Shown one piece after another: positions 4,009 through 38,922 of a stretch of DNA of 46,106 bases. A program made the translations under genes and the position numbers. The notes below the pieces were generated by a model. That model saw only the letters and a list, made by a program, of their open reading frames with translations. It did not search any database and had not been told where the DNA came from. Origin of the DNA: a virus (lineage: Duplodnaviria > Heunggongvirae > Uroviricota > Caudoviricetes); the IMG/VR virus record IMGVR_UViG_2939127364_000005, one strand, 5' to 3'. Position 1 is the first letter of the stretch, and the number at the start of each line of letters is the position of its first letter.

Positions 4009-4608
4009 TCAGAATTTATAACCGACACCCACGATGAAACCGTCAGTGCGCCAGTCACCACTGCCGGAACCTTCATAAGCAATATCAATGGCCACGGATT
4101 CGGTCGGGTTAAACTGCACGCCAGCCCCCCACGCCAGAGACGTGTTGCTGTGGCGACCGTCATCACTTCCGGTCAGCACATCGTGCGTTTTCCCCTTGTT
4201 GTCAGTTACGCGGAGATAATCCCCGGAGAAAGTCGACACGCGGCTGTAAGCCACACCCGCCATCGCATACGCGCTGAACCATTCATTCACGCGCACAGAC
4301 GGCCCCGCCATCACGCTGAACCAGCGGTTACGCGCGGAATCTTCATGCCAGCGGGTATCGCTGTAACGGGTAAGCTGGCGATTCTTGTCTCCTGCATAGC
4401 TGAATGACGTCACCATTCCCAGCGTGTCCGTAAACTCATAACGGTATTTCACGTTAATCCCGTTCAGATCATCGCTGCCGGAAACGTTCGTCCGGGCATG
4501 AAGATAGCCCGCGCTCAGCGTGGACTGATGTTCAGACGCCCATGCAGGCGCACCGGATACGGCCAGACAAATGGCTGCGGACAAAATGGCGGCATAAAGT
4601 TTACGCAT
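4009..4608 (-). CDS. lom: Ail/Lom-family outer membrane protein (199 aa), diverged from lambda Lom
   Basis: Signal-peptide-like N-terminus, C-terminal [24 protein letters not shown] identical to the lambda Lom C-terminus as recalled; position between J and stf. Confidence 0.85.
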
Positions 4609-4674: not shown

Positions 4675-6808
<2,134 letters not shown>

Positions 6809-6816
6809 CCACTACA

Positions 6817-9418
6817 CTTCCAGTTTCTTATTGACGGTCTGTGTGATTTCATTGCTGACATCCGTAATGGACGTCCTGATTTCAGCCAGGTCAGGCGCAA
6901 GCTGACCGTTATCAATCTGCGTCCACAGCTCCTGAGCCAGATGGGTTTTCCCTATCTCGCCTTTGAAAAAATCCAGATAGCCTGATGCATCATCACTCGG
7001 CTGACCGACAGCCTCCACGAATGCCGATTTGCCAACGGTGTTCACACTGCGAACGTAAAAATAATAATCATAGCCCGGTTTGATATTGATACTGGCGGCT
7101 ATCCAGTACAGTGCCGTACCAAGATAACGCGCGCTGGTTTCAACCTGCCTGATATCCGCAATCCGTTTTTCCGAGAACCAGAACTCAAACTGTACCGTCG
7201 GGTCATAAACCGCAAGATGCGGCGTGGCGGTTATCTGAAAATAGCCCGGCGTCAGCTCAATCCGCGACGGCGCTGCCGGTGCGGCAATCCGGAACGATAC
7301 CGACGCCGGATCGCCCTGCTGCCCCCACGCATTTACTGCCCGGACTGTCAGCCTGTAGTTCCCCAGCGCCAGTTGTGTGAAGCGGTAAGTGGTTTCCGTC
7401 GTCCGGGCCGTGCTGACCAGCCGCTCACGGCCGTCATCCGCTGCCACGGTCAGGCGAAGCAGGAAGCTCACGCCCTTCACCACCTTCGGCGTGTCCCAGC
7501 GGGCCAGCACCTGGTATTCCCCGCTGTCTGCGGTGACTTCTGCGGTCAGGTGCTGCACCGCTGGCGGCGTGACACCATTTACCGTGCCGCTCTGGTCGCC
7601 GTCAAAGTGCGCCCCGTTATCCACGATGGCCTCTTTTTCCGGTACATGCTGCACGGCGGTGATGGCATACGTGCCGTCGTCGTTCTCACGGATACTCACG
7701 CAGCGGAACAGGCGCTGGCGCAACGTCGGCAGCTTCAGCCCCCATACGCTGTATTCAGCAACGCCGTCAGGAACACGGCTCACTTTCACCTTCACGCCGT
7801 CGGTGACGGACTGAACCTCCACGCTGACCGGATTGCCACTTCCGTCAACCAGGCTTATCAGCGTGGTACCGGAGGATGGCAGCGTGATTTCACGGTCGAG
7901 CGTCAGCGTCCGGGTCTGGCTGTTTACCGCCAGCACGCGCCCGCCGATGCTGATACCGGCATAGTCATCATCACAGATTTCAATGACATCGCCCGGCACA
8001 TGGCGAAGCCCTTCTGCGCCCACGCTGAAGTCCACGGTCTGCGTTTCCAGCAGTTCTGTTTTAATCAGCCACAGCCCGGCGCGATGTGCCTGCCCCCGGC
8101 TGGTACAGCCAAAGGCATCCATCTTCGTGACATTACGACCGTAACGGGCAATGGCCTGCGTGTCCTCCACAAGCTCTGTCGCCGTCTCCCAGCCGTTATT
8201 CGGGTCAATCCAGTTCACCTCAACGGCATTATGGCGGTCCTTCAGGGCGCTGAAGCTGTAGCGGAACGGCGCACCATCATCCGGCATCACCACATTACTG
8301 CGGTTATAGGTCCACACCTTATCCGACGGTCGGTCCTGCACGAACGTCAGCGTCTGCCCGTTCCATACCGGCATACAGCGCATCGCAGAGCAGAAATCAC
8401 TGAGCACATCCCACGCCTTGCGCTGTGTGGTCAGGTACGCATTACAGGTGATGCGCGGCTCCGTGCCGCCAAAACCGTCCGGCACCGACTGATCGCAATG
8501 CTGGCCGATGACATACAGCGCCCATTTGTCCACATCCGCCGCACCAAGACGTTTCCCCATGCCGTAGCGCGGATGGGTCAGCATATCCCACAGACACCAG
8601 GCCATGTTGTTGCTGTATGCTGGCTTAAACGTTCCGTCCCAGATACCGCTGTATTGCCGCGTCTGCGGGTTATAGTTCGACGGCACCTGCAGAATGCGCC
8701 CGCGAAGATGATAATTACGGCTCACCTGCTGGCTGCCGAACTGCTCCGAATCCACCTGCACGCCGACCAGTGCCGTGTTCGGGTAGCCCTGTTTCACATC
8801 GATGATTTCGGTGTATGACGACCAGAGCGTTTTGTTCTGCAGCTGGTCTGTGGTGCTGTCCGGCGTCATCCTGCGCATCCGGATATTGAACGGGCGCGGC
8901 GGCAGGTTACCCACCACCACCGAGGCCAGATACTGCGAGGTGGTTTTGCCCTTAATGGTGATGTCTTTTTCCGTCACCCAGCCACCATTACGCTGGATCT
9001 GAACCAGCAGGCGGACTTCCGACGGATTCCTGTCCCCCTTTGAGGTGGTTTCCACCAGTGCCTGCACGCCGAAGGTAAAACGCAGTCGGTCAATGTTTGC
9101 CGACGTGATGGTCCGGGTGATCGGCGTGTCGTATTTCACTTCCGTACCCAGCACCGTCTCGGAGCCGGAGGATTCAAATCCCTCCGGCGGTGTCTGCTCC
9201 TGCTCACCGGCCCGGAACACCACCGTGACGCCGGAGATATTGGTATTCCCCTCACTGTCCAGCACTGGCGTACTGTTCAGCAGCACGCTTTTTAATCCAT
9301 CCACCGGACCTTCAACCGGCCCTTCGCTGATGGCATCGATCACACTCAGCAACTGCGTGGACTTCAGGTTGTCCTTCGCTTCGCGCGGAGTATGCCCCTT
9401 ACTGCTGCCTTTACCCAT
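6817..9418 (-). pseudogene. J: Tail tip / host specificity protein J, N-terminal about 867 codons, truncated by the IS insertion
   Basis: [41 protein letters not shown]... near-identical to lambda J N-terminus as recalled; reading frame runs into the IS right end and stops after 2 codons. Confidence 0.9.
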
Positions 9419-30876: not shown

Positions 30877-31013
30877 AGGTGAGCCGTGTAATTGAAGGTT
30901 TTTACGTCAGATTCTTTTGGGATTGGCTTGCGTTTATTTCTGGAGCGTTTCGTTGGAAGGTATTTGCAGTTTTCGCAGATGATGTCGGTGAAACTTCGTC
31001 GCTGTCGCCTCAT
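30831..31013 (-). CDS. ninE: NinE (60 aa from [10 protein letters not shown])
   Basis: [51 protein letters not shown] matches lambda NinE as recalled. Confidence 0.85.
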
Positions 31014-31537
31014 GCCGCCCTCCTGACGCCCTGCCCGATCGCTATCAATGCCGCTTTGGATACGGTAGTAAACATCCGTCGAGGACTGATGAACGGTCGC
31101 CAAATCAGCAGCATGGAGCCTTTGCTGTTTCCCTTCTTCTCCAGCCCCGTCGATGGTTCGATAAAATTAATCCGTCCATCAGTGATAATGCGAACTTCGT
31201 CGACACTCTCCAGAGCCTTGCTGAACCATCCGACTGACATATCCTCTGGCACAAGCATCACTACCGTCTGTCGCTGTTGTATGCACTGCTCAGCGGCTTT
31301 TTCCACCCACGGCCTGATATTGCTGTACGGTGGGTTATTCCAGATTGCACCGTGGCTTACCCACTCAGAATTGAGCGCGTCGTCGGCCTCAGTTAGCCAG
31401 TGAGCACACAGAGCATTTTTGTCGCTCGCTGCCGAATCCAGCCAGAATCCAAACTCAATATCCAGTGCATCAAAAAGCCAAAGCGGCGTTTGCCAGCAGT
31501 CCTTGTCGTGTGCTGGCGTATTTGATTTGATAGTCAT
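31010..31537 (-). CDS. Phage-type DNA N6-adenine methyltransferase (about 175 aa); its ATG overlaps the ninB stop (ATGA)
   Basis: NPPY(S) catalytic motif of N6-adenine methyltransferases ([14 protein letters not shown]); occupies the slot where lambda has ninC/ninD. Confidence 0.7.
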
Positions 31538-33036: not shown

Positions 33037-33932
33037 AGATCCACCCCGTAAATCCAGTCTGTGTTTGTCAGGTCGAGTTTTGGTTTGCTGGCTGTCACGA
33101 CTGCCTGTTGCTTGTTACGGTTGATTTCGAGCTGGGTCCACTTGTCGCGGAGTTTGGCCGGGCTAAGCACGTTACCGGACCAGAAGTTGTCCTGGCATGC
33201 CCAGCGGAACAGTACACACATGTCGCGATGGTTACGTCCGTCACGTTCACGCATCAGGCGGATATCGTTAGCCCACCCAGCAAAATTCGGTTTTCTGGCT
33301 GATGGTGCGATAGTCTTCACCATGTCAAACATCCACTCTGCGGCGGTCAGGTCTTCTGCTGTTCCCCACTTGCTGCCGCTCTGAATTGCAGCATCCGGTT
33401 TAACCACAGAAAGATCGTTTTCTGGCTGGTCAGAGGATTCGCCAGAATTCTCGGACGAATAATCTTTTCTTTTTTCTTTTGTAATAGTGTCTTTTGTGTC
33501 CCCCTGTTTTGAGGGATAGCAATCCCCCAATTTGAGGGATGTTTTATCCCTCGTTTTAGGGGATTTTCCCTCGTTTTGAGGGATACACCATTCTGAGATG
33601 TTTTTATTTGGTCCAAACATGCCGCCTTGCTGCTTGATAATATTCATTTTGACGAGTTCTAACTTGGCTTCATTGCACCGTTTGACAGGTAACTTTGTAA
33701 TCTCGCTAAGTTGAGAATCGGTGATTCTGTCCATTGGTTTATTCCACCCATAGGTTTTACGCAGAATGGCAAGCAGCACTTTAAACTGTCGCTTGGTCAG
33801 ATCTGCGCCCGAATAAGCCTCAAGCAGCATATTTGATAGTCTGGCGTAACCATCATCGAGATCTGCCACATTACGCTCCTGTCCGGCAAAGTTACCTCTG
33901 CCGAAGTTGAGTATTTTTGCTGTATTTGTCAT
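33033..33932 (-). CDS. O: Replication initiator O (299 aa)
   Basis: MTNTAKILNFGRGNFAGQERNVADLDDGYARLSNMLLEAYSGADLTK... matches lambda O as recalled. Confidence 0.9.
   Translation of the reverse strand: MTNTAKILNFGRGNFAGQERNVADLDDGYARLSNMLLEAYSGADLTKRQFKVLLAILRKTYGWNKPMDRITDSQLSEITKLPVKRCNEAKLELVKMNIIKQQGGMFGPNKNISEWCIPQNEGKSPKTRDKTSLKLGDCYPSKQGDTKDTITKEKRKDYSSENSGESSDQPENDLSVVKPDAAIQSGSKWGTAEDLTAAEWMFDMVKTIAPSARKPNFAGWANDIRLMRERDGRNHRDMCVLFRWACQDNFWSGNVLSPAKLRDKWTQLEINRNKQQAVVTASKPKLDLTNTDWIYGVDL
33495..33595. repeat. ori-lambda iterons: four tandem O-binding repeats (TCCCTCAAAA-type) inside the O gene
   Basis: Repeated ATCCCTCAAAACGAGGG-like units visible as the reverse complement (cctcgttttgagggat...); coordinates approximate. 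Confidence 0.8.
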
Positions 33933-34376: not shown

Positions 34377-34515
34377 TTATGCTGTTGTTTTTTTGTTACT
34401 CGGGAAGGGCTTTACCTCTTCCGCATAAACGCTTCCATCAGCGTTTATAGTTAAAAAAATCTTTCGGCCTGCATGAATGGCCTTGTTAATCGCGCTTTGA
34501 TATACGCCGAGATCT
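34377..34515 (-). pseudogene. cro: cro, C-terminal part (codons about 21-66), separated from its start and from PR by IS5
   Basis: ...[46 protein letters not shown] matches lambda Cro as recalled; upstream frame runs into IS5. Confidence 0.85.
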
Positions 34516-34519
34516 TTAG

Positions 34520-35714
<1,195 letters not shown>

Positions 35715-35718
35715 TTAG

Positions 35719-35776
35719 CTGTCTTTGTTTGCCCAAAGCGCATTGCATAATCTTTCAGGGTTATGCGTTGTTCCAT
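35719..35776 (-). pseudogene. cro: cro, N-terminal 19 codons (MEQRITLKDYAMRFGQTKT), still attached to PR
   Basis: Reverse complement reads ATGGAACAACGCATAACCCTGAAAGATTATGCAATGCGCTTTGGGCAAACAAAGACAG, ending at the IS5 target duplication. Confidence 0.85.
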
Positions 35777-35800
35777 ACAACCTCCTTAGTACATGCAACT

Positions 35801-35866
35801 ATTATCACCGCTAGAGGTAAAGTAGTCAACACGCACGGTGTTAGATATTTATCCCTTGCGGTGATA
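35801..35866. promoter_or_regulatory. Right operator region: OR1 35803-35819, OR2 35827-35843, OR3 35850-35866, with divergent PR (-10 at 35801-35806, -35 at 35824-35829, minus strand) and PRM (-35 TAGATA near 35842-35847, -10 TAGATT near 35865-35870, plus strand)
   Basis: 17-bp operators TATCACCGCTAGAGGTA, CAACACGCACGGTGTTA, TATCCCTTGCGGTGATA read from sequence; OR2 and OR3 identical to lambda as recalled, OR1 differs at one central position. Confidence 0.8.
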
Positions 35867-35873
35867 GATTTAA

Positions 35874-36590
<717 letters not shown>

Positions 36591-36708
36591 CCACAATACA
36601 ACCTTGTTGTCGCAAAAAGATCGCATATGCGATTGTTTATTAGAAATAGAAATCGCCATATAGGCGAATAGTCGATCTCAGCGCATAACATAAGGAAATC
36701 AATAACAT

Positions 36709-37614
36709 ATGCCAAATTTACCGATGGGCGGATCGCAGGGTGAATTACCCTTAGTACCTACAGTAGAAGTTGTTGCTGATGGCATTCCTATGGGGGTGCT
36801 TAATGATGGAACCCCTTATCTAACTCTTTACGGTTTAGCCAAATTATGTGGCATAGATGAAGCACCTCTTCGAATGTTTACATCTAACTGGGAGACTGAA
36901 AAAAATAAGCCAAGAGGACAAAAAGTAGCTGCATACTTAGCTGAGAAAGGATTTAACAACGTTGACCGACTGTATACCCGCGTCATAAATAGCTCAAACG
37001 TTGAAACACATGCTTATCCTGACTATGTTTGTATGGCTATCCTCCGTTACTACGCTCTAGATGCCACCAATTTTGATAGGTCAGTCGCAATAGGTAATTT
37101 TGTTCGCTTGGCTGAGTACACGCTTAAGCGAATGATTTATGAAAAGTCAAATTACAACCCAAATGCTTCAATAGATATCTCATTCGAGAACTATAGAGCA
37201 AGGATTAAGCTAAACGATCAGATACCGACAACTCATTTTGCAGTATTCAGAGAGATAGCTGACATTGCCATGAACCTGATCGGAGGAGGATTCCCAATGG
37301 ATGACACCACATCTTTGGATGGAAGTGTTGGAATTCACTGGGGAAAGTATTGGACAGCTAATGGGCTATCTGAGAAATTCGGGGAAAGGGTGCAGTACCC
37401 ACATCTATTCCCCGAAAATTACAGGCAGTCAGCTGCAAATAAGCATATAACAGCTTGGATTTATCCTATTGAGGCACTTGGCGTGTTCAGAAAATGGCTA
37501 CACGATAATTACGCAATGGAAAAACTGCCAAATTACCTTGGGAACAAAAAGATTAGTAATGCCTCCGAGCTATTAGAGTCGATAAAAAAACCAGCACTCC
37601 CAAATAAGCATTGA
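36709..37614 (+). CDS. Uncharacterised 301-aa protein at the rexAB position; N-terminal KilA-N/Bro-N-like motif, C-terminal half unassigned; candidate repressor-linked defence gene (possibly BstA-like)
   Basis: Directly downstream of cI on the same strand; motif GTPYLTLYGLAKLCGI resembles KilA-N/Bro-N DNA-binding domains; no similarity to RexA or RexB as recalled; followed by a strong terminator. Confidence 0.6.
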   Translation: MPNLPMGGSQGELPLVPTVEVVADGIPMGVLNDGTPYLTLYGLAKLCGIDEAPLRMFTSNWETEKNKPRGQKVAAYLAEKGFNNVDRLYTRVINSSNVETHAYPDYVCMAILRYYALDATNFDRSVAIGNFVRLAEYTLKRMIYEKSNYNPNASIDISFENYRARIKLNDQIPTTHFAVFREIADIAMNLIGGGFPMDDTTSLDGSVGIHWGKYWTANGLSEKFGERVQYPHLFPENYRQSAANKHITAWIYPIEALGVFRKWLHDNYAMEKLPNYLGNKKISNASELLESIKKPALPNKH

Positions 37615-37626
37615 TCTCCACCACAA

Positions 37627-37652
37627 CCCGGCATCTGCGCCGGGTTTTCTTT
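37627..37652 (+). terminator. Rho-independent terminator after the 301-aa gene (CCCGGC-loop-GCCGGG then TTTTCTTT)
   Basis: Hairpin plus T-run read from sequence. Confidence 0.65.
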
Positions 37653-37802
37653 GCCTAACGCCCCCAAAAAACACATAACCAATTGTATTTATTTTAAAAT
37701 TAATAGATACAACTCGCTAAACATCGCAATTCAGATCTCTCGATCACCTTCCCAATCCACACAACCCTGCAAAAAATAAATCTATATAAAAAACATACAG
37801 AT

Positions 37803-37865
37803 AACCATCTGCGGTGATAAATTATCTCTGGCGGTGTTGACACAGGTACCACTGGCGGTGATACT
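37803..37865 (+). promoter_or_regulatory. Left operator and pL: OL3 37803-37819, OL2 37823-37839, OL1 37847-37863; pL -35 TTGACA 37837-37842, -10 GATACT 37860-37865
   Basis: Operators AACCATCTGCGGTGATA, TATCTCTGGCGGTGTTG, TACCACTGGCGGTGATA read from sequence; 17-bp promoter spacing. Confidence 0.8.
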
Positions 37866-38046: not shown

Positions 38047-38370
38047 ATGGATGCACAAACACGCCGCCGCGAACGTCGCGCAGAGAAACAGGCTCAATGG
38101 AAAGCAGCAAATCCCCTGTTGGTTGGGGTAAGCGCAAAACCAGTTAACCGCCCTATTCTCTCGCTGAATCGCAAACCGAAATCACGAGTAGAAAGCGCAC
38201 TAAATCCGATAGACCTTACAGTGCTGGCTGAATACCACAAACAGATTGAAAGCAACCTGCAACGTATTGAGCGCAAGAATCAGCGCACATGGTACAGCAA
38301 GCCTGGCGAACGCGGCATAACATGCAGTGGACGCCAGAAAATTAAGGGAAAATCGATTCCTCTTACCTAG
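38047..38370 (+). CDS. N: Antitermination protein N (107 aa from MDAQTRRRERRAEKQAQWKAAN)
   Basis: Matches lambda N including the arginine-rich boxB-binding motif. Confidence 0.9.
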   Translation: MDAQTRRRERRAEKQAQWKAANPLLVGVSAKPVNRPILSLNRKPKSRVESALNPIDLTVLAEYHKQIESNLQRIERKNQRTWYSKPGERGITCSGRQKIKGKSIPLT

Positions 38371-38922
38371 TTACTTAGATATTGGCCTTGGCTTTATCTC
38401 AATATTATATGGATCATAGCTGGCAACTAATTCAGTCCAGTAAATATCCTCAATAGGGAATAATATATGCTTCCCGTTCCATCGGGAAAAAGTTTTGTTC
38501 AACACACCAAGCTCAATCAACTCACTAATGTATGGGAATTGTTTTGATGTAACCACATACTTCCTGCCTTCATTAAGGGCTGCGCACAAAACCATAGATT
38601 GCTCTTCTGTAAGGTTTTGAATTACTGATCGCACTTTATCGTTTTGCATCTTAATGCGTTTTCTTAGCTTAAATCGCTTATATCTGGCGCTGGCAATAGC
38701 TGATAATCGATGCACATTAATTGCTAGCGAAAATGCAAGAGCAAAGACGAAAACATGCCACACATGAGGAATACCGATTCTCTCATTAACATATTCAGGC
38801 CAGTTATCTGGGCTTAAAAGCAGAAGTCCAACCCAGATAACGATCATATACATGGTTCTCTCCAGAGGTTCATTACTGAACACTCGTCCGAGAATAACGA
38901 GTGGATCCATTTCTATACTCAT
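38371..38922 (-). CDS. sieB: Superinfection exclusion protein SieB (183 aa from MSIEMDPLV)
   Basis: Matches lambda SieB as recalled; convergent with and abutting N. Confidence 0.85.
   Translation of the reverse strand: MSIEMDPLVILGRVFSNEPLERTMYMIVIWVGLLLLSPDNWPEYVNERIGIPHVWHVFVFALAFSLAINVHRLSAIASARYKRFKLRKRIKMQNDKVRSVIQNLTEEQSMVLCAALNEGRKYVVTSKQFPYISELIELGVLNKTFSRWNGKHILFPIEDIYWTELVASYDPYNIEIKPRPISK

What the first reader, a model, noticed from the sequence alone, without database searches (positions are those of the whole stretch)
36591..37660. rexAB is replaced by a single 301-aa KilA-N-like gene downstream of cI: candidate repressor-linked defence gene
In lambda the slot immediately downstream of cI, co-transcribed from PRM in the lysogen, carries rexA-rexB. 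Here a single 301-aa ORF sits between an intact cI and OL/pL, ending in a strong terminator. Its N-terminal region carries a KilA-N/Bro-N-like motif (GTPYLTLYGLAKLCGI) and the C-terminal half matches nothing I recognise. This placement and architecture are what has been described for BstA-type abortive-infection proteins, so this is the most likely place in the window for a defence function that protects the lysogen.
Basis: partly seen in the sequence, partly recalled or inferred. Interest (0 to 1): 0.85.

Follow-up and report, generated by a model that had tools for sequence, protein, structure and literature searches.

The report
BstA phage-defence gene beside lambda repressor
The gene that replaces rexAB next to the repressor of this defective lambda-like E. 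coli prophage is a BstA abortive-infection gene.

Summary
A 301-aa ORF (36709-37614, +) lies between an intact lambda-type cI and the tIMM terminator, OL and pL. Window 36587-37624 replaces exactly the rexA-rexB segment of lambda.

The interpretation also holds. The protein matches PADLOC BstA (E 3.6e-106) and PHROG 6287, named "BstA abortive infection system" (E 5e-135), over its full length. It is 43.5% identical to the founding BstA of Salmonella phage BTP1. It is 92% identical to the CL707/NCTC10963-type E. coli BstA that Owen et al. 2021 tested. That paper already discusses the cI-N slot and the rexAB parallel, so this is known biology.

Two increments came out of the work:
- **Chimeric allele.** The spacer and codons 1-100 match an O111-type allele. 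Codons 101-301 match the tested BstA-Ec type.
- **Repeat pair at the start codon.** GATCTCAG and GATCGCAG lie 57 bp apart, where BTP1 carries its anti-BstA (aba) element, whose repeats are 56 bp apart. A repeat at 56/57 bp with clade-specific sequence recurs across 50 distinct bstA loci.

The C-terminal domain has no solved structural neighbour. The prophage itself is defective, with IS5 in cro and an IS3-family element in J.

The parts
35877..36590 (+). cI repressor (237 aa, lambda immunity); bstA is presumed to be co-transcribed with it from pRM/pRE
   Evidence: ORF. HTH_3 plus Peptidase_S24. The window stretch 35712-36586 that holds OR and cI is 97.3% identical to lambda. No promoter-like site on the + strand between cI and bstA.
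36591..36708 (+). cI-bstA spacer of the O111-type module. It holds two perfect palindromes (36620-36633 ATCGCATATGCGAT; 36653-36667 TCGCCATATAGGCGA) and the conserved ribosome-binding region AAGGAAATCA.
   Evidence: The spacer is 97-100% identical to L003 but only 39-48% to the CL707-type spacer. Its RNA fold is no better than shuffles (z -1.17).
36674..36740 (.). Candidate aba (anti-BstA) self-immunity DNA element. Direct repeats R1 GATCTCAG (36674-36681) and R2 GATCGCAG (36731-36738) lie 57 bp apart and straddle the bstA start codon.
   Evidence: The position and spacing match the mapped BTP1 aba, which spans -29..+34 with terminal CCCGCC repeats 56 bp apart. A repeat at 56/57 bp is enriched family-wide. 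Function is inferred, not tested.
36709..37614 (+). bstA gene (301 aa), BstA-family abortive-infection protein
   Evidence: PADLOC BstA E 3.6e-106. PHROG 6287 E 5e-135. 43.5% identity to BTP1 BstA. 92% identity to the CL707/BstA-Ec type.
36709..37140 (+). N-terminal DNA-binding-like domain (residues ~13-145). A beta-hairpin plus helix-turn-helix surrounds the conserved MGVLNDGTPYLT..GLA..CG block. Residues 1-12 are predicted disordered.
37141..37611 (+). C-terminal BstA domain (residues 145-301), effector of unknown fold class. Invariant residues: R165, E182, D204, S206, H232, Q240, Y252, W211, W215, W263.
36570..37010 (.). Recombinant patch. This segment is 97-100% identical to the O111-type locus, while the flanks (cI, and 36990-37700) match the CL707/BstA-Ec-type locus.
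   Evidence: Sliding identity. Protein residues 1-100 equal L003 and residues 101-301 equal L001, L002 and L008, with 24 differences from each parent.
37625..37646 (+). Rho-independent terminator (tIMM homologue) ending the cI-bstA unit
   Evidence: Homologous to the lambda stretch 35826-35496, whose first bases are the 3' end of rexB. CL707 annotates the equivalent site as Timm.
37837..37865 (+). pL promoter with the OL operators, marking the right edge of the cargo slot
   Evidence: TTGACA-17-GATACT. 89% identical to the lambda OL/pL region.

Best explanation
The ORF is a bstA gene, a single-protein abortive-infection defence carried as cargo in the cI-to-OL slot of a lambda-immunity prophage.

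**Inferred from the position and from Owen et al. 2021.** The gene is transcribed with cI from pRM in the lysogen, so BstA is present constitutively.

**Shown for BstA-BTP1, with only the defence phenotype also shown for BstA-Ec; inferred here.** When a sensitive foreign phage infects, BstA moves to the replicating phage DNA and blocks its replication. The infected cell still lyses but releases no progeny, which protects the population.

**Domain roles (inferred).** The N-terminal winged-helix/KilA-N-like domain is the likely DNA-contact module. The conserved C-terminal domain is the likely effector, and its biochemistry is unknown.

**Self-immunity (inferred).** It should come from an aba DNA element straddling the start codon. 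I place it at about 36674-36740, defined by the repeats GATCTCAG and GATCGCAG 57 bp apart.

**This allele.** It is a natural chimera. The aba region and residues 1-100 come from one lineage. Residues 101-301 are identical to the tested BstA-Ec type. I therefore predict BstA-Ec-like defence with a different aba specificity. Because this prophage is defective, only the defence half of the system is likely to matter to the host now.
For: **Family membership**
- PADLOC BstA E 3.6e-106 and PHROG 6287 E 5e-135 over the full length.
- 43.5% identity to BTP1 BstA over residues 10-300.
- 92% identity to the CL707-type protein, with residues 101-301 identical.
- The primers used to clone BstA-Ec from NCTC10963 match CL707-type loci exactly: L008 matches both, L001 and L002 match the forward primer.

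**Phenotypes in the literature.** PMC8585504 reports the Abi phenotype, block of replication, co-localisation with phage DNA, and the 63-bp DNA-based aba with essential terminal repeats and cognate specificity.

**Architecture**
- cI lies directly upstream on the same strand, with no intervening promoter-like site, and a terminator follows.
- 35 of 48 distinct loci have an HTH plus S24 repressor upstream.

**aba-like repeat**
- The best straddling 10-mer repeat falls at spacing 56/57 in 22.4 of 50 distinct loci, out of 36 spacings tried.
- The mean best score is 7.06, against 5.41 +/- 0.145 when the upstream sequence is shuffled.
- Cognate upstream/downstream pairing scores 7.06 and non-cognate 5.82; 0 of 2000 permutations reach the cognate value.
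- At least seven different repeat sequences occur, and both copies change together.
- The repeats follow the bstA 5' module, not the repressor type.
- R2 lies in codons 8-11, within the N-terminal tail that AF2 predicts as disordered.

**Gene integrity.** The region is >=99% identical in 23 complete E. coli genomes, and the exact protein was seen on 623 contigs.
Against: - Nothing was measured on this allele.
- The N-terminal 93 residues carry all 24 differences from the tested protein, 16 of them in residues 1-25. The consequences are unknown.
- R1 and R2 match at only 7 of 8 positions. In BTP1 a single substitution in a repeat abolished aba function.
- The family-wide repeat statistics use related loci, so the counts are not independent events.
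- The aba of BstA-Ec was never mapped finely.
- KilA-N homology is not detectable with Pfam HMMs.
- Co-transcription with cI is inferred. A weak hairpin sits in the spacer at 36619-36634.
- The C-terminal domain gives no mechanistic clue.
Confidence: 0.85

Rival explanations
1. The gene is a BstA homologue by descent but has no role here. It would be a silent or inactive passenger in a decaying prophage that is disabled by IS5 in cro and an IS3-family element in J.
For: The prophage is defective. In another genome an IS1 element lies inside the region that matches this gene (H59), so loss of the gene is tolerated. The chimeric junction could in principle have uncoupled the two domains.
Against: The ORF is intact and the region is 100% identical in five complete genomes of unrelated origin, and >=99% identical in 23. 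The exact protein was seen on 623 contigs. cI, pRM/OR and the terminator are intact. Both parental halves are themselves widespread alleles. Every residue listed as invariant in the family alignment, which includes this protein, is by definition present in it.
Confidence: 0.07
2. It is a DNA-binding regulator of the prophage itself, an antirepressor- or Bro/KilA-like transcription factor, and not a defence protein.
For: The N-terminal domain resembles winged-helix and APSES DNA-binding domains. Some family members give weak HTH hits: Phage_CII in 8 of 84 members, best E 0.003. The gene lies in the immunity region.
Against: Close homologues from three genera confer abortive infection when expressed alone outside any prophage. 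BstA does not affect lysogenic development (PMC8585504). There is no hit to the ANT, Bro-N, KilA-N or Rha Pfam models.
Confidence: 0.04
3. It is chiefly a host-fitness or virulence factor, as first proposed for the BTP1 orthologue st313-td, and phage defence is secondary.
For: The BTP1 gene is still annotated st313-td. Earlier papers cited in PMC8585504 link it to both virulence and anti-virulence phenotypes.
Against: Those reports proposed no mechanism. The defence phenotype is direct and strong. The strain that matches this window comes from pig faeces, and the allele occurs in very diverse E. coli.
Confidence: 0.03

Closest known systems
BstA-Ec, the bstA of E. coli NCTC10963 (E4V89_RS07420), tested in Owen et al. 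2021 (PMC8585504); same allele type as phage CL707 orf CL70704 and WP_000026554.1
   Same: Same slot, between a lambda-type cI and tIMM/OL/pL. Same cI (93-100% nt identity). Same length, 301 aa. Residues 101-301 are identical and overall identity is 92%. Same terminator.
   Different: The spacer and the first ~300 nt of the gene come from another lineage, at 39-87% nt identity. That gives 24 substitutions, all in residues 2-93. The start-codon repeats are GATC(T/G)CAG here and (G/A)ATCCCT(A/G)CA there. This allele has not been tested.
BstA-BTP1 (st313-td, STMMW_03531) of Salmonella prophage BTP1, with its 63-bp aba element
   Same: Two-domain protein downstream of the repressor on the same strand, followed by a terminator. 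A conserved AAGGAAA(A)TCAA ribosome-binding region. A direct repeat straddling the start codon at almost the same positions: BTP1 at about -28 and +29, 56 bp apart; window at -35 and +23, 57 bp apart.
   Different: Only 42-43.5% amino-acid identity. The repeat sequence is CCCGCC in BTP1 and GATCNCAG here. The phage backbone is P22-like rather than lambda-like.
RexAB of phage lambda
   Same: Occupies exactly the same cassette slot, from the cI stop codon to tIMM. It is also an abortive-infection system expressed with cI in the lysogen.
   Different: No sequence relationship. RexAB is a two-protein system of a sensor and a membrane ion channel that collapses membrane potential. BstA is a single cytoplasmic protein that blocks phage DNA replication (PMC8585504 discussion).
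KilA-N / APSES / winged-helix DNA-binding domains (e.g. Mbp1, DdrC N-terminal domain)
   Different: No Pfam KilA-N or Bro-N hit for any of 84 family members at E<=10. Sequence identity in the structural matches is 4-11%.

Membership tests
BstA abortive-infection family (Owen et al. 2021) | Full-length sequence homology to BstA-BTP1 across both domains | tested here: met
   PADLOC BstA E 3.6e-106, residues 8-286 against profile positions 4-281 of 292. PHROG 6287 E 5e-135, residues 5-301. tblastn to BTP1 gives 43.5% identity over residues 10-300, E 3e-71.
BstA abortive-infection family (Owen et al. 2021) | Two-domain build: an N-terminal KilA-N(-like) DNA-binding domain, a boundary near residue 155, and a conserved C-terminal domain | tested here: met
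   The AF2 full model has pLDDT 87.7 but pTM 0.61, while the C-terminal part alone reaches pTM 0.80. That is consistent with two separately folded domains. The precomputed Pfam table lists PF26567, the BstA-like C-terminal domain, for every homologue but one (P0103).
BstA abortive-infection family (Owen et al. 2021) | The N-terminal domain is specifically of the KilA-N type | tested here: inconclusive
BstA abortive-infection family (Owen et al. 2021) | Located directly downstream of the prophage repressor on the same strand and ending in a Rho-independent terminator | tested here: met
   cI is at 35877-36590, bstA at 36709-37614 and the terminator at 37625-37646. 35 of 48 distinct family loci have an HTH plus S24 repressor upstream.
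BstA abortive-infection family (Owen et al. 2021) | A cognate aba DNA element at the 5' end of the gene with terminal direct repeats | tested here: inconclusive
   A 7/8 direct repeat, GATCTCAG (36674) and GATCGCAG (36731), lies 57 bp apart across the ATG, as in BTP1 where the spacing is 56 bp. The 56/57-bp repeat is strongly enriched across 50 distinct loci. Anti-BstA activity cannot be tested in silico.
BstA abortive-infection family (Owen et al. 2021) | Abortive-infection phenotype with a block of phage DNA replication | not testable with these tools
   Abortive infection was shown for BstA-BTP1, -Ec and -Kp; the replication block for BstA-BTP1 (PMC8585504). It is inferred here from 92% identity to the BstA-Ec type.
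RexAB (lambda) | Homology to RexA or RexB | tested here: not met
   The lambda segment 37230-35827 holding rexA and rexB has no counterpart in the window. The family scans give no Rex hit.

The most novel reading that the evidence does not exclude
The window allele is a natural domain swap, and it makes one open question about BstA testable: which part of the protein reads its cognate aba DNA.

The putative aba and residues 1-100 come from the O111-type lineage. Residues 101-301 are identical to the tested BstA-Ec. If aba specificity lies in the N-terminal DNA-binding domain, this allele should be neutralised by its own aba and by the O111-type aba, but not by the BstA-Ec aba.

More generally, the aba architecture mapped only in BTP1 appears to be universal in the family. 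It consists of two short direct repeats 56-57 bp apart (about 5.4 helical turns) across the start codon, and the repeat sequence is clade-specific and changes in both copies together. That would give a sequence rule for predicting cross-immunity groups among bstA prophages.
Probability: 0.45. Interest if true: 0.45.

Novelty: already known. Interest (0 to 1): 0.2.

Why it matters
The finding correctly names a gene that older RefSeq annotations, including the matching CP53 record, still call "hypothetical protein". It shows that a defective lambda-like prophage keeps an intact repressor, BstA and SieB, which fits domestication of prophage defence cargo.

It adds nothing fundamental. BstA, its position after cI and its equivalence to the rexAB slot were published in 2021.

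The useful extras are practical:
- a ready-made natural chimera for mapping aba specificity;
- in-silico evidence that the 56/57-bp repeat architecture of aba is conserved across the family with allele-specific sequence.

Tried and rejected
1. **KilA-N/Bro-N by HMM.** No hit for the protein or for any of 84 relatives at E<=10. The label rests on the literature and on weak fold similarity.
2. **Function of the C-terminal domain from structure.**
   - Foldseek against BFVD gave no hit at E<=0.001.
   - A profile search of PDB sequences found nothing.
   - The AlphaFold-database library was not available.
3. **aba as a mimic of the replication origin.** The BstA-Ec-type repeat ATCCCT(A/G)CA resembles the lambda iteron half-site ATCCCTC. 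The window allele's repeat does not. It is also not enriched anywhere else in the 46 kb: 69 sites at >=7/8 against 67 in shuffles. Rejected for this allele.
4. **A structured RNA or attenuator in the cI-bstA spacer.** The fold is no better than shuffles (z -1.17). The + strand hairpin at 36619-36634 has a poor T-tail.
5. **A third repeat copy.** GATCGCAT at 36619 lies 55 nt upstream of R1. It occurs only in this spacer type and was found post hoc, so I do not count it as part of the element.
6. **Newer mechanistic work on BstA.** I found none in the searchable library.
7. **An own promoter for bstA.** No + strand consensus match in the spacer.

Full report
**1. The observation**

The window carries a lambda-type immunity region in reverse orientation. 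The parts are:
- the two halves of cro on the - strand, split by an IS5 element;
- pR (TTGACT-17-GATAAT, 35829..35801, - strand);
- cI (35877..36590, +);
- a 118-bp spacer;
- a 301-aa ORF (36709..37614, +);
- a hairpin terminator at 37625-37646;
- pL (TTGACA-17-GATACT, 37837-37865);
- N (38047..38370, +).

cI has HTH_3 and Peptidase_S24 domains. Three window stretches match lambda NC_001416:
- 35712-36586 matches lambda 38105-37231 at 97.3%;
- 37625-37959 matches lambda 35826-35496 at 89%;
- 38021-38607 matches lambda 35386-34800 at 99.5%.

So window 36587-37624 (1038 bp) stands exactly where lambda has rexA and rexB (lambda 37230-35827).

The terminator folds at -15 kcal/mol, z -2.2. It is the tIMM homologue, and the CL707 record annotates the equivalent site as Timm. 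The motif GTPYLTLYGLAKLCGI lies at residues 34-49, in the most conserved block of the N-terminal half (invariant G29, L31, G34, L38, L43, C47, G48).

**2. What the gene is**

- Pfam (local copy) and NCBIfam gave no hit.
- PADLOC gave BstA at E 3.6e-106 over residues 8-286.
- PHROGs gave phrog_6287, "BstA abortive infection system, replication inhibitor", at E 5e-135 over residues 5-301.
- tblastn against phage records found the BTP1 gene st313-td/bstA at 43.5% identity over residues 10-300. It also found the hypothetical protein CL70704 of lambdoid phage CL707 at 94% over residues 9-301.
- A database search found 113 clusters of relatives. All but one truncated hit carry the precomputed Pfam tag PF26567; some sources name carriers of that tag "BstA-like C-terminal domain-containing protein".
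- Newer RefSeq annotations use the name "BstA C-terminal domain-containing protein". Older ones, including the record that matches this window at 100% (E. coli CP53, NZ_CP033096), say "hypothetical protein".

**3. What is known about the family**

All of this comes from Owen et al. 2021, PMC8585504.

- BstA of prophage BTP1 lies downstream of cI and is highly expressed in lysogens.
- It confers population-level defence by abortive infection. It relocates to foci with the infecting phage's DNA and prevents phage DNA replication.
- Homologues from K. pneumoniae and from E. coli NCTC10963 (BstA-Ec) do the same.
- BstA-BTP1 protects E. coli against lambda, phi80, P1 and T7, but not against T4 or T5.
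- Self-immunity is given by aba, a 63-bp DNA element spanning -29 to +34 of bstA.
  - Its terminal CCCGCC direct repeats are essential.
  - It works as DNA, and only at high copy.
  - It is specific for its cognate BstA.
- The discussion notes that the cI-N interval is a mosaic hotspot and that rexAB sits at the same site in lambda.

**4. Relation to the tested E. coli protein**

The supplementary primers used to clone bstA-Ec have 3' ends GTCCGCAGCAAGAGACTTTATACG and GCGTTTTTTGGGGGCGTTAGGC. The forward primer matches the first bases after the cI stop codon of the CL707-type loci exactly (L001, L002, L007-L009). Locus L008 matches both primers exactly. The window lacks the forward primer site. 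So BstA-Ec is of the CL707 type.

Sliding identity and residue counts show that the window allele is a clean chimera.

| Compared with | Identical part | Divergent part |
|---|---|---|
| CL707/BstA-Ec type (L001, L002, L008) | cI at 93-100% nt; 36990-37700 at ~100% nt | 36590-36990 at 39-87% nt; 24 substitutions in residues 2-93, 16 of them in residues 1-25 |
| O111-type locus (L003, CP027582) | 36570-37020 at 97-100% nt | cI unrelated; the rest at 63-93% nt; 24 substitutions in residues 111-300 |

The crossover lies between residues 93 and 111. The left edge of the patch is a ~25-nt stretch at the 3' end of cI that is shared even by the unrelated repressor gene of L003.

All three alleles belong to one 90%-identity cluster of 206 members. 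Each was seen on 600-800 contigs. Among 5426 complete E. coli genomes, 43 carry this gene region:
- 23 at >=99% identity;
- 10 of the O111 type, at 86%;
- 10 of the CL707 type, at ~94% from nucleotide 172 of the query onward.

**5. An aba-like element**

At the position of the BTP1 aba the window has GATCTCAG (36674-36681, position -35) and GATCGCAG (36731-36738, position +23), 57 bp apart. On its own, a 7/8 match of an 8-mer is weak evidence. I therefore collected 80 bstA loci from viral contigs and assigned their start codons. I reduced them to 50 distinct -80..+83 segments and searched each for the best 10-nt direct repeat straddling the ATG, at every spacing from 40 to 75.

The results:
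- The best repeat falls at spacing 56 or 57 in 22.4 of 50 loci. Chance over 36 spacings would give about 2.8.
- The mean best score at 56/57 is 7.06. It is 5.41 +/- 0.145 when the upstream part is shuffled.
- Pairing each upstream region with its own coding region scores 7.06. Non-cognate pairing scores 5.82, and 0 of 2000 random pairings reach the cognate mean.

The repeat sequence differs between clades, and both copies change together:
- CCCGCC (BTP1);
- GATCCC(G/A)G, GATCG(G/C)..G and ATCCCT(A/G)C (enterobacterial alleles);
- GCAGCACC;
- (G/C)(A/C)CCACCA;
- TGG(A/T)CACC;
- GGGCA(C/G)CA and TGGGCA;
- TGGTG(A/T)AC.

Some loci show no convincing repeat (L017, L059, L069, L073).

Two internal controls apply:
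- The repeats follow the bstA 5' module, not the repressor. The window and L003 have unrelated cI genes and nearly the same repeats. The window and CL707 share cI and have different repeats.
- R2 lies in codons 8-11, inside the N-terminal tail that AF2 leaves disordered (pLDDT <50 for residues 1-12). Conservation there is more easily explained at the DNA level.

There are caveats. The loci are related, so the counts are not independent events. The aba of BstA-Ec was never mapped finely. Activity cannot be tested in silico. Adjacency alone would also keep the aba region and the N-terminal codons together in a recombination event. In the text and supplements I could read, Owen et al. describe the repeats only for BTP1.

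**6. Structure**

AF2 with an 84-sequence alignment gave pLDDT 87.7 and pTM 0.61 for the whole protein. It gave pLDDT 87.2 and pTM 0.80 for residues 145-301 alone.

- **Family size.** An exhaustive search with this domain found 301 clusters at 50% identity among 1.84 billion representatives. Among the 150 best listed, most are proteins of about 300 aa with the domain in the C-terminal half. The two-domain build is nearly fixed.

**7. Mechanism proposed for this locus**

- **Shown elsewhere, inferred here.** BstA is expressed constitutively with cI. When a sensitive phage infects, BstA goes to the replicating phage DNA and blocks replication. The cell lyses without releasing progeny.
- **Inferred.** The N-terminal domain contacts DNA. 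The aba repeats, about 5.4 helical turns apart, are its cognate sites, and amplified aba DNA neutralises the protein.
- **Specific prediction.** This allele defends like BstA-Ec, because the C-terminal 201 residues are identical. It should belong to the aba immunity group of the O111-type allele.
- **Consequence of the defective prophage.** The prophage has IS5 in cro (about 34520-35711, TTAG duplication). An IS3-family element splits gene J. Self-immunity is therefore probably moot, and only host protection remains.

**8. Verdict**

The finding is real and was correctly interpreted, but it is already known. Standard defence-finder profiles name the gene. The founding paper tested an allele 92% identical in the same slot and discussed the rexAB parallel. 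The interest is low. The chimeric allele and the family-wide 56/57-bp repeat are modest, testable increments.

Noticed in passing
window 34520-35711 (IS5; transposase 34588..35568 +), inside cro (35711..35776 and 34377..34553, - strand): An IS5 element with a TTAG target duplication interrupts cro at about codon 21 (lambda coordinate ~38100). OR, pR and pRM are left intact. The prophage should be unable to run a normal lytic programme.
   Followed up: partly
window 4675-9418 (IS3-family transposase 5631..6808 +): An IS3-family element splits the host-specificity gene J into two pseudogene fragments (4675..5559 and 6911..9418). This is a second disabling lesion in the prophage, while cI, bstA, sieB and lom stay intact.
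   Followed up: no
window 36565-36590: The last ~25 nt of cI (CCAGTGGCC(A/T)GAAGAGACGTTTGGGTAA) are shared with an unrelated repressor gene in E. coli 2013C-4538 (L003). This is a conserved mosaic joint at the left edge of the bstA cassette. The right edge is the tIMM terminator.
   Followed up: partly
window 36620-36633 and 36653-36667: The cI-bstA spacer holds two perfect palindromes, ATCGCATATGCGAT and TCGCCATATAGGCGA. They occur in the window and O111-type spacers but not in the CL707-type spacer. The first contains a third GATCGCA copy 55 nt upstream of repeat R1. Their function is unknown, and the spacer RNA fold is no better than shuffles.
   Followed up: partly
window 36619, 36674, 36731; methyltransferase gene 31010..31537 (-): All three repeat copies of this allele contain a Dam site (GATC), and the prophage encodes its own N6-adenine methyltransferase. 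The BTP1 aba has no GATC, so any link between methylation state and aba activity would be allele-specific. This is pure speculation.
   Followed up: no
L001/L002 spacer and 5' end of bstA; window ori iterons 33511-33600: The BstA-Ec-type repeats ATCCCT(A/G)CA share six bases with the lambda ori iteron half-site ATCCCTC. The window allele's own repeats do not, and they are not enriched elsewhere in the window.
   Followed up: yes
E. coli ECO2947, NZ_CP046259 (hit H59): In this genome the match to window 36591-37660 comes in two pieces at 99.8% identity that together span 1847 bp, with an IS1A transposase annotated under the match. This looks like natural inactivation of the gene, but the insertion point was not mapped.
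   Followed up: no
window 38371-38853 (-) and 4009-4608 (-): Other lysogen-expressed cargo is intact next to bstA: a SieB superinfection-exclusion gene directly after N, and a Lom/Ail outer-membrane protein gene in the tail region.
   Followed up: no
tool libraries: The local Pfam-A copy has no model for the BstA C-terminal domain, so it reports zero families. The precomputed table lists PF26567 for every homologue but one (P0103). A Pfam-only check would have wrongly left this gene as 'no known domain'.
   Followed up: yes
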